Shown: positions 32,124 through 36,657 of the stretch, one piece after another
Layout: the number at the start of each line of letters is the position of its first letter
How positions within the stretch are numbered: position 1 is the stretch's first letter
Program-made: the position numbers and the translations under genes
From: an uncultured bacterium
GTDB taxonomy: Bacteria; Cyanobacteriota; Vampirovibrionia; Gastranaerophilales; Gastranaerophilaceae
Direction of reading: 5' to 3'
NCBI GenBank assembly: GCA_949292185.1
Contig: CASEYP010000002.1
Span: 46,142 to 110,141 of the forward strand
Length of the DNA stretch: 64,000 bases
Notes under the pieces: model-generated
Database searches by the model: none
Told to the model about the DNA's origin: nothing
The model's input: the letters and a program-made list of their open reading frames with translations, nothing else

Positions 32124-32199
32124 ATAAAAACAAAATTATTGTTACATAAGTTTACAAAAAGGAAAAATAAATGAAATGTATCAAATTGATTGAATAATG

Positions 32200-32294: not shown

Positions 32295-33503
32295 ATGGCA
32301 CGTGAAAAGTATGAACGTACGAAACCGCACGTTAACGTAGGTACAATTGGCCACGTTGACCACGGTAAAACTACATTAACAGCAGCAATTACCGGTACAT
32401 TAGCAGCAGCTGGTAAAGCAGATGCTAAAAAATTCGATGAAATCGATGCTGCTCCAGAAGAAAAAGCAAGAGGTATTACTATCTCTACTGCACACGTAGA
32501 ATACGAAACAGACAAAAGACACTATGCTCACGTTGACTGCCCAGGCCACGCTGACTATGTTAAAAACATGATTACAGGTGCAGCTCAAATGGATGGAGCT
32601 ATCTTGGTAGTTGCAGCAACTGATGGTGCTATGCCTCAAACTCGTGAACACATCTTGTTAGCAAGACAGGTTGGTGTTCCTAACCTAGTTGTATTCTTAA
32701 ACAAATGCGATATGGTTGATGATCCAGAATTATTAGACTTAGTTGAAATGGAAGTTAGAGAAATCCTTTCTCAATACGATTTCGACGGAGATAACATCCC
32801 ATTCATCCGTGGTTCAGCTTTAAAAGCTTTAGAAGCAGTTCAAGCTAATCCAAATATCCAAAGAGGAGAAAATGAATGGACAGATAAAATTTGGGAATTA
32901 ATGGATGCATTAGATACATACTTCCCAGATCCAGTTAGAGACTTAGACAAACCATTCTTGATGCCAATCGAAGACATCTTCTCTATCACTGGTCGTGGTA
33001 CTGTTGCTACAGGCCGTGTAGAACGTGGTATTGTTAAAGTTGGTGATGAAGTTGAATTAGTTGGTATCAAACCTACTAAGAAAACTACAGTTACTGGTGT
33101 TGAAATGTTCAGAAAATCACTTGACCAAGGTCAAGCTGGTGATAACATCGGTGCTTTACTTCGTGGTGTTGATAAAACTGAAGTTGAACGTGGTCAAGTT
33201 TTGGCTAAACCTGGTTCAATTCACCCACACACTAAATTCACAGCTAACGTTTACGTATTAACAAAAGAAGAAGGTGGACGTCACACTCCATTCTTCCCAG
33301 GTTACAGACCTCAATTCTACATCAGAACTACTGACGTAACTGGTACTATCCAATTTGACGGTCAAATGGTAATGCCTGGTGATAACGTTGTTATGACAGT
33401 TGAATTGATTGCCCCTGTTGCTATTGAACAAGGTATGAGATTCGCTATCCGTGAAGGTGGTAGAACTGTTGGTGCTGGTGTTGTTGACTCTATTATCGAA
33501 TAG
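32295..33503 (+). CDS. tuf: Elongation factor Tu
   Basis: 402 aa with [17 protein letters not shown] and NKCD motifs. Contains [16 protein letters not shown], matching the insertion I recall from cyanobacterial/plastid EF-Tu. Confidence 0.97.
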
Positions 33504-33529
33504 TTTTATTAACCATTCAATATAAATAA

Positions 33530-33560
33530 AAAGACTTGATATCAAAGATATCAAGTCTTT
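33530..33560. terminator. Bidirectional terminator shared by tuf (+) and the RHH operon (-)
   Basis: 14-bp perfect stem AAAGACTTGATATC / GATATCAAGTCTTT with loop AAA and A/T runs on both sides. Confidence 0.85.
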
Positions 33561-33637
33561 TTGTTACTTACATTACTTTCATAATCTTTACCGAGAAAAC
33601 TTATTATAAATCCAGAAGACCTCTTACATTTATAAAT

Positions 33638-33814
33638 TTATGCTAATAAAGCTTCTAAAATCTTAGCATTAGTTTGAGCTCTGCGAATATTTAATAAATA
33701 TTTTTCAACATTTGCTCTAATTTCTTGAGCATCGTTATCCAAATATTTCACTTCGCTATCAAGCATTTTCAAATATTCATTTACTGTAATCATTTGATAA
33801 CTTTTGTTATTCAT
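33638..33814 (-). CDS. 58-aa micro-protein, paralogue family member (ITVxEY motif and NAKILEALLA tail)
   Basis: Own translation: MNNKSYQMITVNEYLKMLDSEVKYLDNDAQEIRANVEKYLLNIRRAQTNAKILEALLA. Below the track's length cut-off. Starts 39 nt downstream of the RHH gene, with GGGGAA before the ATG. Confidence 0.7.
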   Translation of the reverse strand: MNNKSYQMITVNEYLKMLDSEVKYLDNDAQEIRANVEKYLLNIRRAQTNAKILEALLA

Positions 33815-33853
33815 TTCCCCAATTCCTTTTTCTAAATTTCCCCTTTTAAAATT

Positions 33854-34042
33854 TTAACCTAACAGAGCTTCTAATATTTCTGCATTTGAAACAGCCTTTT
33901 TACCATTTCTAACTTGTGATCTGTACATATAAGTTCTTAATGCTTCTCTGATCAATTCTGAACGTGTACGATTTTCTGAATCTGCAACTGAATCGATTTC
34001 ATTTAAAAACTTTTCAGGCATTGAAATTAATACTCTTGCCAT
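33854..34042 (-). CDS. Ribbon-helix-helix (CopG/Arc-like) DNA-binding protein with family-specific C-terminal tail
   Basis: 62 aa: MARVLISMPEKFLNEIDSVADSENRTRSELIREALRTYM (strand-helix-helix pattern) followed by the tail ...KKAVSNAEILEALLG. Confidence 0.8.
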   Translation of the reverse strand: MARVLISMPEKFLNEIDSVADSENRTRSELIREALRTYMYRSQVRNGKKAVSNAEILEALLG

Positions 34043-34085
34043 ATTTTTCTCCTTTAATTTTTCCTATTTGTAATCCCCTTACTTA

Positions 34086-34116
34086 TATATAAAGTATTTT
34101 TGTTTGCAAAAATTGC
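34086..34116 (-). promoter_or_regulatory. Regulon motif site: GCAATT-N13-ATACTTTATATA
   Basis: Exact match on the minus strand, ending 43 nt upstream of the RHH ATG (34042). Confidence 0.6.
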
Positions 34117-34209
34117 GCATTTTATAAAGAAAAAGTATATAATCTTAATATAATGTTACAATTCAAAAAGCAAGAGCCACAAGGAATATAAACCCCTAAA
34201 CACACAAAA

Positions 34210-34239
34210 AGGATGTTGAGTATAATACTTCAACATCCT
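34210..34239 (-). terminator. Terminator of the 99-aa gene
   Basis: Stem AGGATGTTGA(G) / (T)TCAACATCCT with an 8-nt loop. On the minus strand it is followed by TTTTTGTGTG. Confidence 0.75.
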
Positions 34240-34264
34240 AAACTGTTTATATTGTGATCTTGAA

Positions 34265-34564
34265 TTAACCTAACATAGATTCAAGAAGATAAGCATTAAT
34301 TCTAGCTTTACGAGATTTGCTTAAAGACAATTCTATTGATTTTTCGATTTCTCTATCTTCAGCAGTTGAATATTTAACTTTGTCTAAAGCTGATGCATAT
34401 TCTTTTACTGTTATAAATTGAGAAGCTTGGGATAATGCACATTGAGCTTTTAAAGATTTAGCATAATCAGATGCTGTAATCATTGTATGTCTTTGAGCAT
34501 TCTCTTTTTTCATTGACTCAACATAGTCATTAACTGTCATTAAATCTGAATAATTATTGTTCAT
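34265..34564 (-). CDS. 99-aa paralogue with a triplicated N-terminal module and the family tail (INAYLLESMLG)
   Basis: Three copies of h-[IM]-T-[VA]-x-[DE]-Y-[VA]-x-[SA]-[ML]-x at residues 8-19, 28-39 and 50-61. Has its own motif promoter and terminator. Confidence 0.7.
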   Translation of the reverse strand: MNNNYSDLMTVNDYVESMKKENAQRHTMITASDYAKSLKAQCALSQASQFITVKEYASALDKVKYSTAEDREIEKSIELSLSKSRKARINAYLLESMLG

Positions 34565-34602
34565 ATATTTCCCCTGTTCTCTTAATATTTTACCCTTACA
34601 TA

Positions 34603-34633
34603 TATATAAAGTATTTTTCTATTTAAAAATTGC
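34603..34633 (-). promoter_or_regulatory. Regulon motif site: GCAATT-N13-ATACTTTATATA
   Basis: Exact match on the minus strand, ending 38 nt upstream of the ATG at 34564. Confidence 0.6.
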
Positions 34634-34695
34634 CTATTTTTTATATAAATTTTACATATTTTAACATTTAAATACAAGTTCTTAACAAATCGAAA

Positions 34696-34718
34696 GGGGC
34701 AGGCGTTAAACCTGTCCC
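34696..34718 (-). terminator. Weak terminator hairpin after 56-aa gene copy 1
   Basis: GGGGCAGG / CCTGTCCC arms (one mismatch when read on the minus strand), followed by CTTTCGATT as at copy 2. Confidence 0.45.
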
Positions 34719-34749
34719 TTAAACTTGTATCTTAATAGAATCCTATTTA

Positions 34750-34920
34750 TTAAGCTAATAAAGCTTCAACGATTTTGGCATTTGTTTTTGCTCTTTGAAC
34801 ACTTAATAAATATTTTTCAACACTTGCTTCAATTTCTTTTTCTTCGATTGATAAACATTTTACATTATCTAAGCTATCAACATAATCTTTAACTGTTATC
34901 ATTTCATAATCATTTCTCAT
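34750..34920 (-). CDS. 56-aa micro-protein, copy 1
   Basis: Own translation: MRNDYEMITVKDYVDSLDNVKCLSIEEKEIEASVEKYLLSVQRAKTNAKIVEALLA. AAGGGGAAAAG RBS. Protein identical to copy 2, with only synonymous DNA differences. Confidence 0.8.
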   Translation of the reverse strand: MRNDYEMITVKDYVDSLDNVKCLSIEEKEIEASVEKYLLSVQRAKTNAKIVEALLA

Positions 34921-34965
34921 AATCTTTTCCCCTTATATTTTTTTTATTCTCTTATCCCTTACATA

Positions 34966-34996
34966 TATATAAAGTATTTTTCTATTTAAAAATTGC
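34966..34996 (-). promoter_or_regulatory. Regulon motif site: GCAATT-N13-ATACTTTATATA
   Basis: Exact match on the minus strand, ending 45 nt upstream of the ATG at 34920. Confidence 0.6.
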
Positions 34997-35068
34997 CTAT
35001 TTTGTAGTTATTTTGTATATAATTTTTACATATTTTAATACCTATAAAATCACTAATCATAATCGAAA

Positions 35069-35099
35069 GGGCAGAATTAAATTTAATTTAATTCTGCCC
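35069..35099 (-). terminator. Terminator after 56-aa gene copy 2
   Basis: 13-bp perfect stem GGGCAGAATTAAA / TTTAATTCTGCCC with a 5-nt loop, followed on the minus strand by TTTCGATT. Confidence 0.7.
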
Positions 35100-35131
35100 T
35101 TATAAACTTTTTATAGATTATATTTTATTTA

Positions 35132-35302
35132 TTAAGCTAATAAAGCTTCAACGATTTTAGCATTTGTTTTTGCTCTTTGTACACTTAATAAATATTTTTC
35201 AACGCTTGCTTCAATCTCTTTTTCTTCAATTGATAAACATTTTACATTATCTAAGCTATCAACATAATCTTTAACTGTTATCATTTCATAATCATTTCTC
35301 AT
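35132..35302 (-). CDS. 56-aa micro-protein, copy 2
   Basis: Same 56-aa protein as copy 1. Five nucleotide differences, all at third codon positions and all synonymous. Confidence 0.8.
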   Translation of the reverse strand: MRNDYEMITVKDYVDSLDNVKCLSIEEKEIEASVEKYLLSVQRAKTNAKIVEALLA

Positions 35303-35348
35303 AATCTTTTCCCCTTATTTTTCTCTTTATTTTCTTATCCCTTACACA

Positions 35349-35379
35349 TATATAAAGTATTTTTCTATTTAAAAATTGA
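35349..35379 (-). promoter_or_regulatory. Regulon motif site, variant TCAATT-N13-ATACTTTATATA
   Basis: One mismatch (T for G) in the distal hexamer. Ends 46 nt upstream of the ATG at 35302. Confidence 0.55.
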
Positions 35380-35420
35380 TTAATTCTTATCTATAGTTTA
35401 TATACTTTTTAAATAGAAAA
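35361..35420. repeat. 15-bp perfect inverted repeat overlapping the copy-2 promoter spacer
   Basis: TTTTCTATTTAAAAA (35361-35375) and TTTTTAAATAGAAAA (35406-35420), separated by 30 nt. Confidence 0.7.
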
Positions 35421-35559
35421 AGCTCAGAATCACGTATGGCTTGATTTATGACAAACAATACCCGTTTACAAAACTTAATAAATTCTAAAAAGCATATAAC
35501 TCATAGTTCATTTGAAGTAAAATTAAAGAAGGAAATAGCTAGTAAAAAAGGAAATATAA

Positions 35560-36657
35560 ATGCTTAGAACAGGGATTGTAGGATTACCAAATGTAGGGAA
35601 GTCAACATTATTCAATGCACTTACAAGTGCTAGAAATGCACAAAGTGCAAACTATCCATTTTGTACAATAGAGCCGAATATTGGAGTTGTTGATGTTCCT
35701 GATGAGAGATTACCAATACTTGCAAAATTATGTAAAACAGACACAATAATACCAACAGCAATAGAATTTGTTGATATTGCAGGATTAGTAAAAGGCGCAA
35801 GCAAAGGAGAAGGTTTAGGAAACCAATTTTTACAAAACATCAGAGAAGTTGATGCAATCATACAAGTTGTAAGATGTTTTGATGATGAAAACACAATACA
35901 CGTAGCTGGTAAAGTTGATCCGCTTAGCGATATCGAAACAATAAACACTGAATTAGCACTTGCAGATATGGCTTCAATAGAACGAAGACAAGCAAGAATT
36001 GCAAAAACAGTCAAAGGCGGAGATAAAGAAGCTGTATTGGAAGATAAAGTTCTCAATAAATTAACAGAATTGTTATCTGATTGTACATTTATTGATATAA
36101 CAAAACATTTTGATGAAGATGAACTTCCAATAGTAAAAAGATTGAATTTATTATCTGCTAAGCCTGTAATTTACTGCGCAAATGTTTCTGAATTTGATTT
36201 GAAAAACGGAAACGATTACACTAAAAAAGTTGAAGAATATGCAAAAGCACACGGTGCTGAAATGGTTATAATTACTGCAAAAATAGAAGAAGAACTTGCA
36301 GATTTAGGGCATGAAGAAGCTCAAGAATATCTAAAAGAATTAGGAATTGAAGATAGCGGTATAAACAGAATGATAAAATCTGTTTATAACTTGCTAAAAC
36401 TAAGAACCTTCATTACTGCCGGAGAAAAAGAAGTTCGAGCTTGGACAATTCCTGCAGGAACAAAAGCACCTCAAGCTGCCGGTGTAATTCATACAGATTT
36501 TGAAAAAGGCTTTATTAGAGCTGAAATAACACCTTACAAGGACTTTGTTGAACTTGGTTCATATAATGCTTGCAAGGAAAAAGGTGTAACAAGACTTGAA
36601 GGTAAAGATTATGTAATCCAAGATGGAGATCTTGTTCACTTTAGATTTGCGGTATAA
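35560..36657 (+). CDS. ychF: Ribosome-binding ATPase YchF
   Basis: 365 aa. GIVGLPNVGKST, DIAGLV and a C-terminal TGS-like domain. Confidence 0.93.
   Translation: MLRTGIVGLPNVGKSTLFNALTSARNAQSANYPFCTIEPNIGVVDVPDERLPILAKLCKTDTIIPTAIEFVDIAGLVKGASKGEGLGNQFLQNIREVDAIIQVVRCFDDENTIHVAGKVDPLSDIETINTELALADMASIERRQARIAKTVKGGDKEAVLEDKVLNKLTELLSDCTFIDITKHFDEDELPIVKRLNLLSAKPVIYCANVSEFDLKNGNDYTKKVEEYAKAHGAEMVIITAKIEEELADLGHEEAQEYLKELGIEDSGINRMIKSVYNLLKLRTFITAGEKEVRAWTIPAGTKAPQAAGVIHTDFEKGFIRAEITPYKDFVELGSYNACKEKGVTRLEGKDYVIQDGDLVHFRFAV

What the first reader, a model, noticed from the sequence alone, without database searches (positions are those of the whole stretch)
34750..35302. Duplicated 56-aa gene: identical proteins, with all five DNA differences synonymous third-position changes
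The two 171-nt CDSs are 382 bp apart. They differ at 34777/35159, 34798/35180, 34822/35204, 34834/35216 and 34846/35228. All five sites fall on third codon positions of the minus-strand frame and change GCC/GCT, GTT/GTA, AGT/AGC, GAA/GAG and ATC/ATT. None alters the protein. The flanking 5' leaders between the ATG and the motif differ by several substitutions and an indel (45 versus 46 nt), and one promoter hexamer differs (GCAATT versus TCAATT). This is the signature of purifying selection on a real, translated micro-protein kept in two independently transcribed copies. Gene conversion would have erased the silent differences, and a decaying non-coding repeat would not respect the frame.
Basis: seen in the sequence. 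Interest (0 to 1): 0.6.

Follow-up and report, generated by a model that had tools for sequence, protein, structure and literature searches.

The report
Duplicated 56-residue RHH-derived microprotein gene
An uncultured gut relative of cyanobacteria carries two tandem, self-contained copies of a real 56-residue gene whose protein is kept identical by selection. The protein is a cut-down relative of the DNA-binding regulator encoded next door, so it probably modulates that regulator, but this role is untested.

Summary
The CDSs at 34750-34920 and 35132-35302 (minus strand) encode identical 56-aa proteins. They differ at exactly the five listed third-codon positions, all synonymous (dS about 0.18, dN 0).

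The gene is real. It has intact, mostly 56-aa orthologues throughout one genus of Candidatus Gastranaerophilales, with a between-species dN/dS of about 0.25. An independent assembly contains the copy-to-copy junction. Two other same-species assemblies show a single copy, so copy number either varies or was collapsed.

Copies group by genome in the sister species (8 informative sites to 0), while the spacers give mixed signals. This fits concerted evolution or repeated unequal crossing-over between the repeated promoters.

The gene belongs to a conserved locus: tuf, then p58, rhh62, p99, p56 and p56, then ychF. In other genera the gene downstream of rhh62 is a clear paralogue of that ribbon-helix-helix regulator (hhalign 96%). 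This genus's p58 and p56 have lost the canonical strand and helix A. They keep helix B and a C-terminal tail found in only seven proteins of the genome.

My best reading is a truncated-paralogue modulator of RHH62, similar in logic to SinI. That mechanism is inferred, not shown. An earlier first-reader note of this scan (e1-4057579) flagged the whole array on this same stretch.

The parts
35132..35302 (-). p56b, the ychF-proximal copy of the 56-aa gene
   Evidence: The protein is identical to that of p56a.
34750..34920 (-). p56a, the distal copy of the 56-aa gene
   Evidence: It differs from p56b by five synonymous changes.
35339..35415 (-). Promoter module of p56b. The core is TCAATTTTTAAATAGAAAAATACTTTATATATGTGTAAGGG. 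This variant has T for G in the distal box and lacks the upstream TGTAA element.
34956..35035 (-). Promoter module of p56a. The core is GGCAATTTTTAAATAGAAAAATACTTTATATATATGTAAGGG, with the upstream element ATGTAA-N5-TATATAC.
   Evidence: One search shows the module conserved in 40 distinct orthologous upstream regions.
35303..35338 (-). 5' leader of p56b. It is purine-rich, unstructured and carries the Shine-Dalgarno AAGGGG.
   Evidence: (minimum free energy 0 kcal/mol).
34921..34955 (-). 5' leader of p56a. It is purine-rich, unstructured and carries the Shine-Dalgarno AAGGGG.
35069..35099 (-). Terminator-like hairpin after p56b: GGGCAGAATT...AATTCTGCCC followed by UUUCGAUU.
   Evidence: -22.8 kcal/mol, z = -5.7.
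34696..34718 (-). Terminator-like hairpin after p56a: GGGACAGG...CCTGCCCC followed by UUUCGAUU.
   Evidence: -25 kcal/mol for the 80-nt 3' flank, z = -4.65.
34265..34564 (-). p99, a paralogue with three N-terminal ITVxDY modules, one helix B and the family tail. It has the same promoter core, at 34593-34631.
33854..34042 (-). rhh62, a CopG-type ribbon-helix-helix regulator with the tail NAEILEALLG. It has the same promoter class, at 34076-34114.
   Evidence: PF01402, 1e-7; PDB 4me7_E, MazE/EndoAI, 1.5e-8.
33638..33814 (-). p58, a paralogue of p56 that lies 40 nt downstream of rhh62 with no promoter motif of its own.
   Evidence: (60% identity to p56).

Best explanation
SHOWN.
- The two ORFs are a real tandem duplicate of a protein-coding gene. 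The unit runs promoter, leader, 56-aa ORF, hairpin.
- The host is a Candidatus Gastranaerophilales (Melainabacteria) genome.
- The protein sequence is held constant while silent sites and flanks drift.
- The gene belongs to a small lineage-specific family (p56, p58, p99).
- The family is anchored at a conserved locus between tuf and ychF, next to a highly conserved ribbon-helix-helix (RHH) regulator, RHH62.
- The family descends from an RHH62 paralogue.
- In this genus the canonical beta-strand and helix A were deleted.
- What remains is an N-terminal 'YxMITVxDY' module, helix B and the tail TNAKIVEALLA.
- That type of tail occurs only in the four small proteins and the three RHH62-type regulators of this genome.

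INFERRED.
- p56 no longer binds DNA in the canonical RHH way. It is acidic and lacks the basic loop and strand residues.
- It instead associates with RHH62-type regulators through helix B and/or the tail, and so modulates their DNA binding or oligomerisation. This is the logic of a truncated-paralogue antagonist, as with SinI and SinR.
- Extra, nearly identical, separately promoted copies raise the dose.
- Copy number (1 to 3 at this locus, plus dispersed cassettes in other species) changes by unequal recombination between the repeated promoter and ORF units. The same process, or gene conversion, keeps the copies alike.

The confidence of 0.45 is for the whole statement including the inferred mechanism. 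Taken separately, I put the coding status at about 0.95 and the RHH ancestry at about 0.8.
For: Coding and selection:
- five changes out of five are synonymous.
- no match in the relatives has an internal stop.
- median dN/dS is 0.25.
- other within-genome pairs give 4:0, 1:0 and 4:2 synonymous to nonsynonymous changes.

The duplication is real:
- the independent assembly L072 starts inside the 3' end of an upstream copy and continues through the same spacer into the second copy.
- the sister species L013 has the same tandem pair.

Synteny:
- the order tuf, p58, rhh62, (p99), p56 in 1-3 copies, ychF recurs over dozens of MAGs. RHH62 is 81-97% identical across them.

Descent from RHH:
- hhalign of the outgroup partner proteins against the RHH62 family gives probability 96.3% and E = 1.6e-9 over the whole RHH domain and tail.
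- the alignment shows a 17-18-aa deletion of NLVIALPQRALNEIEAV in this genus's p58 and p56.
- p56 against RHH62 gives probability 74% and E = 2.8e-5.
- the AlphaFold2 model has coil 1-9, helix 10-18 and helix 25-55, with pLDDT 81.

The tail:
- the tail occurs in only seven ORFs of the genome.
- in the genomes where the small protein carries the tail, it reads NAK (one NAR) where RHH62 reads NAE, which could be complementary charges.

Self-contained cassettes:
- Searches show the promoter, leader and hairpin with each copy.
- dispersed duplicates in other species begin at the promoter module and end at the hairpin.
Against: - No interaction, expression or DNA-binding data exist.
- Pfam, NCBIfam, PHROGs and PADLOC give no family for p56. 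Foldseek finds no structural match.
- The outward-facing residues of the putative N-terminal strand (Y5, M7, T9) are nearly invariant. A DNA-reading ribbon would also show this.
- In one other genus (locus L090) the gene downstream of rhh62 has a different tail although RHH62 keeps its own. Tail-to-tail pairing therefore cannot be the only link.
- The shared promoter also drives unrelated genes across the genome, so it is not evidence for an RHH62-specific circuit.
- The AlphaFold2 model of p99 is of low confidence (pLDDT 60) and shows no beta ribbon.
Confidence: 0.45

Rival explanations
1. p56 is itself a DNA-binding RHH-like protein. The N-terminal module (strand EMITV plus helix KDYVDSLDN) replaces the deleted canonical strand and helix A. 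Homodimers would bind an operator, for example in the shared promoter, so the copies are autoregulated repressors.
For: - The AlphaFold2 topology of coil, short helix and long helix equals an RHH monomer.
- MAFFT aligns the N-module with the RHH62 strand and helix A.
- Y5, M7 and T9 are nearly invariant.
- The promoter module is conserved far more than silent sites and contains ATTTTT-N6-AAAAAT arms.
Against: - By my count from the sequence, p56 has a net charge of about -3.
- It has no basic residue in the strand and none in the loop before helix B, where RHH62 has NRTRS.
- There is no Pfam RHH hit.
- hhalign aligns only from residue 11 onward.
- p99 carries three such modules for one helix B, which does not fit a canonical RHH dimer.
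- The promoter class is used genome-wide.
Confidence: 0.2
2. The shared tail is a docking or degradation signal for a third factor such as a protease or adaptor. p56 copies would act as abundant decoys or competitors for that factor rather than binding RHH62 directly.
For: - The tail is the most conserved part of every member and sits at the extreme C-terminus, ending in a hydrophobic ALLA or ALLG.
- The genome's tmRNA tag also ends in a hydrophobic tail, YALAA.
- RHH62 keeps its tail in a genus whose partner protein has a different one.
Against: - Eleven residues are conserved, which is more than known C-terminal degrons need.
- The resemblance to the tmRNA tag is limited to the last residues.
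- No candidate factor was identified.
Confidence: 0.15
3. The locus is a toxin-antitoxin or addiction-type module. RHH62 would be the antitoxin and the small proteins would be toxins or extra antitoxins.
For: - The best solved relative of RHH62 is the antitoxin MazE/EndoAI.
- rhh62 and p58 form a two-gene operon with the RHH gene first.
Against: - No PemK/MazF match was found in the 96.7%-complete genome.
- There are no PADLOC hits.
- The locus is inherited vertically in fixed synteny next to tuf across a whole family.
- The two other RHH62 paralogues have no toxin-like neighbours.
- p58 and p56 are paralogues of the RHH protein itself.
Confidence: 0.05
4. The tandem pair is an assembly artefact, for example two strain variants laid side by side. 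The species would really have one copy.
For: Two assemblies that carry the identical protein (L070, L071) show a single copy with b-type upstream and mostly a-type CDS.
Against: - The independent assembly L072 contains the junction: the end of one copy, the spacer with the same hairpin, then the next copy.
- The sister species has the same tandem arrangement.
- The two spacers in the window are distinct sequences with different hairpins. Short-read assemblers more often collapse such repeats than create them.
Confidence: 0.05

Closest known systems
Ribbon-helix-helix (CopG/Arc/MetJ) regulators, Pfam RHH_1 PF01402. The neighbouring RHH62 is a member.
   Same: p56 descends from an RHH62 paralogue. 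It keeps helix B and the C-terminal tail, and its predicted coil, helix, helix topology is RHH-like.
   Different: The canonical strand and helix A are deleted. There is no Pfam hit, the protein is acidic and it lacks the basic DNA-contact residues. An extra N-terminal YxMITVxDY module is present, and it is triplicated in p99.
The SinI/SinR (and SlrA/SlrR) antirepressor-repressor pairs of Bacillus subtilis. This comparison rests on my own knowledge and was not tested here.
   Same: A protein of about 57 aa shares the oligomerisation segment of an adjacent DNA-binding regulator but lacks that regulator's DNA-binding part. It is encoded at the same locus.
   Different: The fold is unrelated (HTH versus RHH). 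Here the small protein is amplified into 4 or more paralogues and dispersed cassettes. Heteromer formation is not shown.
RHH antitoxins of type II toxin-antitoxin systems (MazE/EndoAI, 4me7_E)
   Same: This is the best sequence match of RHH62 among solved structures (1.5e-8). Both have an RHH domain followed by a short C-terminal partner-binding segment.
   Different: There is no toxin gene nearby and no PemK match was found in the genome. The locus shows chromosomal, vertically inherited synteny.
   Same: Both p56 copies carry this module, and 40 orthologous upstream regions conserve it.
   Different: The proposed RpaB/HLR1-like upstream repeat is only weakly matched at the two p56 copies (3 mismatches, which is chance level). 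It is better matched upstream of p99 (1 mismatch) and rhh62 (2 mismatches).

Membership tests
RHH_1 / CopG superfamily (PF01402) | A significant match to the family HMM | tested here: not met
   no Pfam family for p56 at E <= 1. RHH62 matches at 1e-7.
RHH_1 / CopG superfamily (PF01402) | Homology to a bona fide RHH protein over strand, helix A and helix B | tested here: inconclusive
   the outgroup partner against RHH62 gives 96.3% over the full domain; p56 against RHH62 gives 74% from helix A onward; the canonical strand and helix A segment is deleted in p56 and p58.
RHH_1 / CopG superfamily (PF01402) | A dimer with an antiparallel beta ribbon that reads DNA | not testable with these tools
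   Only monomer prediction was available. Residues 1-9 are coil in the monomer model.
Truncated-paralogue antirepressor (SinI-like logic) | Shares the regulator's interaction segment and lacks its DNA-binding element | tested here: met
   the tail and helix B are shared, and the canonical strand and helix A are deleted.
Truncated-paralogue antirepressor (SinI-like logic) | Encoded with the regulator | tested here: met
   conserved synteny. p58 lies in the rhh62 operon and p56 copies lie in the same array. Dispersed p56 cassettes also exist.
Truncated-paralogue antirepressor (SinI-like logic) | Forms a heteromer with the regulator and relieves or alters DNA binding | not testable with these tools
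   No multimer prediction or experiment was possible.
Type II toxin-antitoxin module (MazEF-like) | An adjacent toxin gene of a known family | tested here: not met
   no PemK match in the genome; no toxin-like neighbours; no PADLOC hit.
Protein-coding gene under purifying selection | dN/dS well below 1 and intact frames in relatives | tested here: met

The most novel reading that the evidence does not exclude
The p56/p58/p99 proteins are a bacterial family of dominant-negative microproteins, made by deleting the DNA-reading strand of an RHH regulator. Their dose would be set by copy number of self-contained promoter-ORF-terminator cassettes that multiply and homogenise by recombination. They would titrate a near-invariant RHH regulator that controls the order-wide non-canonical promoter class, which they themselves carry. 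That would make a copy-number-tuned feedback switch in non-photosynthetic relatives of cyanobacteria.
Probability: 0.2. Interest if true: 0.65.

Novelty: new variant of a known kind. Interest (0 to 1): 0.4.

Why it matters
The finding confirms, by sequence evolution alone, that an unannotated 56-aa ORF in an uncultured gut lineage is a real gene. The exhaustive search found only 78 representative clusters among 1.84 billion proteins, and no Pfam model covers it.

It also gives the ORF an ancestry, as a ribbon-helix-helix paralogue that lost its DNA-reading strand, and a testable partner, RHH62. If the antagonist model holds, this would be a clear bacterial case of regulation by truncated paralogues whose dose is set by cassette copy number. 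The case would lie in a clade with no genetics so far.

On its own, the synonymous-only duplicate is a tidy but ordinary signature.

Tried and rejected
- Known families: Pfam, NCBIfam, PHROGs and PADLOC scans of p56, p58 and p99 gave nothing above noise.
- Structure searches: PDB profile searches with p56 and Foldseek against the PDB gave no meaningful hit.
- RNA: an Rfam scan of 33400-35700 gave only sub-threshold noise. Four other motif-bearing loci had no Rfam family, so a non-coding RNA reading was dropped.
- p99 structure: AlphaFold2 on p99, run to see whether the three modules form an intramolecular ribbon, gave pLDDT 60 and was uninformative.
- Promoter scans: the sigma-70 consensus scan does not detect the shared promoter. 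A loose regex for the promoter gave mostly noise. The HLR1/RpaB pattern is not enriched in the window (130 matches against 124 expected).
- Literature: three searches found nothing on these proteins.
- Covariation: a test between the RHH62 and p58 tails failed because the tails are almost invariant.
- Retracted argument: I first read the pairwise spacer scores as proof that the duplication predates the species split. The site-pattern count is mixed, so I now treat that only as moderate evidence.
- Retracted argument: the idea that the 3' flank is older than the CDS in this window rests on indels only. Mismatch divergence in the flank (13%) equals the silent-site divergence, so I dropped it.
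- Long repeat proteins: the hits P0217 and P0273, with DMTVEEYLKS repeats, were set aside as probable compositional matches. I did not test this.

Full report
**1. The observation.**
The minus-strand ORFs at 34750-34920 (p56a) and 35132-35302 (p56b) are each 171 nt and encode the same 56-aa protein. They differ at five sites: 34846/35228, 34834/35216, 34822/35204, 34798/35180 and 34777/35159. With 31.3 synonymous and 136.7 nonsynonymous sites, dS is about 0.18 and dN is 0. The chance that five random changes are all silent is about 2e-4.

The antisense ORFs differ in length and sequence between the copies. The leaders differ by four substitutions and an indel, and the distal promoter box reads GCAATT versus TCAATT.

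**2. Is the duplication real?**
The genome is a 1.89-Mb, 32% G+C MAG of Candidatus Gastranaerophilales.
- An independent ENA assembly (L072) begins with the last 27 nt of an upstream copy (...KIVEALLA, stop). It continues through the same spacer and hairpin into a second copy.
- The sister species (L013) has the same tandem pair between ychF and p99.
- Two other assemblies with the identical protein (L070, L071) show one copy, with the ychF-side upstream region joined to a mostly a-type CDS. This is either a deletion polymorphism produced by recombination between the copies or an assembly collapse.

**3. Is it a gene?**
- A search of 5.8 billion proteins found 86 clusters. Nearly all are exactly 56 aa and none is named.
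- An exhaustive HMM search of 1.84 billion representatives with the p56/p58/outgroup-partner profile (A4) found only 78 clusters.
- In whole genomes, 23 of 24 sampled members of the genus have matches, and no match has an internal stop.
- With a family profile, strong matches occur in two genera and weak ones in other genera of the same family. None was found in the nine other families of the order that were sampled.
- Median pairwise dN/dS among 31 orthologues is 0.25. The N-terminal ten residues and residues 35-56 are nearly invariant, and the middle is variable.

Pfam, NCBIfam, PHROGs and PADLOC have no model for it.

**4. Evolution of the copies.**
Other genomes repeat the pattern.
- MAG HUM_1 (Candidatus Gastranaerophilales bacterium HUM_1) has two dispersed ~512-bp cassettes at 96.3% identity. 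Their CDSs differ by four changes, all silent.
- G094 has two dispersed 357-bp cassettes whose CDSs differ by one silent change.
- L013's tandem pair differs by four silent and two replacement changes.

Pooled, within-genome pairs show 14 silent and 2 replacement changes. That is a lower ratio than between close species, for example 8 to 7 for G000 against L013.

Against L013, all 8 informative CDS sites group the copies by genome and none by position. The eight include five shared amino-acid changes. In the spacers the signal is mixed, with 5 sites by position, 6 by genome and 2 crossed. The inter-copy hairpin stem (GGGCAGA...TCTGCCC) and an 11-nt block are shared by position.

The contrast between 8:0 and 6:5 gives a one-sided exact p of about 0.04 by my own calculation from those counts. 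It suggests that CDS and spacer have different histories, that is, homogenisation of the coding part. The alternative is independent duplication in each lineage.

A ready mechanism for gain, loss and exchange is unequal recombination between repeated units. The promoter core is 38-39 of 39 nt identical upstream of p56b, p56a and p99.

In this window the mismatch divergence of the 3' flank (13%) and of the promoter-plus-leader stretch (about 11%) is similar to that of silent sites (16%). A single duplication age followed by strict purifying selection therefore also fits this window.

**5. Anatomy of the unit.**
Each copy has three parts.
- A promoter module of about 80 nt, conserved in 40 distinct orthologous upstream regions. 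Its columns of at least 90% identity read TATATA...GCAATT.TTAAAT...AAAATACTTTATATA.ATGTAAGGGA.
- A purine-rich leader with no predicted structure and an AAGGGG Shine-Dalgarno.
- Its own strong 3' hairpin, with z-scores of -5.7 and -4.65.

Dispersed cassettes in other species start at the promoter module and end just after the hairpin. The promoter class is not specific to this family. It precedes rhh62, a CHAP hydrolase gene and several Gly/Phe/Met-rich proteins elsewhere in the genome.

The ychF-proximal copy b has a variant module (TCAATT, no upstream TGTAA element). L015, L070 and L071 share that variant at the same position.

**6. What the protein is.**
The window holds an array on the minus strand, which reads (left to right in + coordinates) tuf(+), p58, rhh62, p99, p56a, p56b, ychF(+). 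This order recurs across dozens of MAGs. RHH62 is 81-97% identical across them, p58 35-89% and p56 57-89%.

RHH62 is a CopG-type ribbon-helix-helix protein (PF01402, 1e-7). Its best solved relative is MazE/EndoAI (4me7_E, 1.5e-8).

In other genera the gene downstream of rhh62 encodes 65-75 aa. It consists of an N-terminal YxxATIEEYLxLP module, a canonical strand and helix A (NLVIALPQRALNEIEAV), helix B and the tail ARQAQTNAKIVEALLA. A profile of these proteins matches the RHH62 family with probability 96.3% and E = 1.6e-9 over the whole domain and tail.

This genus's p58 and p56 align with them but lack the 17-18-aa strand and helix A segment. p56 against RHH62 gives probability 74% and E = 2.8e-5.

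AlphaFold2 models p56 as coil 1-9, helix 10-18 and one long helix 25-55 (pLDDT 81). The tail motif occurs in only seven ORFs of the genome: the four small proteins and three RHH62-type regulators. The two other regulators have ordinary neighbours and no toxin.

Wherever the small protein carries the tail it reads NAK (NAR in one genome), and RHH62 always reads NAE.

**7. How it most likely works.**
p56 has lost the DNA-reading strand of its RHH ancestor but keeps helix B and the shared tail. Helix B is the main dimer contact in this fold (established knowledge of RHH structures). The most economical reading is therefore a partner or antagonist of RHH62-type regulators, made in high dose from two or more strong, separately terminated units.

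This is the logic of SinI acting on SinR. It is inferred, and I put it at roughly 0.4-0.5. The coding status and RHH ancestry are much more secure.

The rivals are as follows.
- p56 binds DNA itself through a substitute strand (0.2). The invariance of Y5, M7 and T9 would fit that reading.
- The tail docks a third factor or acts as a degron (0.15).
- The locus is a toxin-antitoxin module (0.05). No PemK was found in the genome, and the locus shows fixed vertical synteny.
- The pair is an assembly artefact (0.05).

**8. Verdict.**
The finding is correct and the gene is real. The signature itself is ordinary. The interest lies in the family it belongs to, which another first-reader note already flagged on this stretch (e1-4057579). 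I rate the novelty as a new variant of a known kind and the interest as 0.4.

Noticed in passing
window 34076-34114, 34593-34631, 34956-34994, 35339-35377, and G000 C2:73755 (window ~27614), C31:79771, C6:10530, C20:65684, C3:16887: A promoter core, (G/T)CAATTTTT-N6/7-AAAAATACTTTATATA-N-ATGTAAGGG, recurs upstream of unrelated genes. Its arms ATTTTT and AAAAAT stay constant while the 6-nt spacer between them varies. Looser matches precede several leaderless Gly/Phe/Met-rich proteins.
   Followed up: partly
L070, L071, L072 (same-species assemblies): Copy number at the ychF side appears to vary. L070 and L071 have one chimeric copy with different apparent breakpoints, and L072 has the tandem junction. 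Silent site 99 carries the b-type C in a-position copies of other strains.
   Followed up: partly
L032/L033 (HUM_1), L081/L082 (G094): In other species p56 travels as a 357-512-bp promoter-to-hairpin cassette to unrelated loci. In G094 the two terminator stems differ at many positions with compensating pairs, while the CDSs differ by one base.
   Followed up: partly
P0217 (1466 aa), P0273 (1109 aa), P0214 (2667 aa): Long proteins matched the N-module part of the family profile. P0217 and P0273 carry dozens of ~19-aa repeats such as RDMTVEEYLKSIEDEKKP; P0214 was not read. The two I read look eukaryotic and the match is probably compositional, but I did not test this.
   Followed up: no
G000 C9:9254-9436 and C19:91108-91290: Two further RHH62 paralogues have the same kind of tail (NANLLESLLQ and NAEILEDILN). 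One lies upstream of panD and the other stands alone. Neither has a small partner gene.
   Followed up: partly
L090 (G093:C16) 1573-1992: In another genus the gene downstream of rhh62 keeps the N-module and helix B but ends in an unrelated tail (TNNKFDELKTNVMH). RHH62 there keeps NAEILESLLG.
   Followed up: no
window 32141-32158: There is a perfect match to the cyanobacterial HLR1 pattern (GTTACATAAGTTTACAAA) between the 67-aa ORF region and tuf. One- and two-mismatch matches lie upstream of p99 (34651-34668) and rhh62 (34145-34162). The pattern is not enriched in the window overall.
   Followed up: partly
G000 C33:28872-29271: The tmRNA gene encodes the tag AKNNVIEADFSRAYALAA.
   Followed up: no
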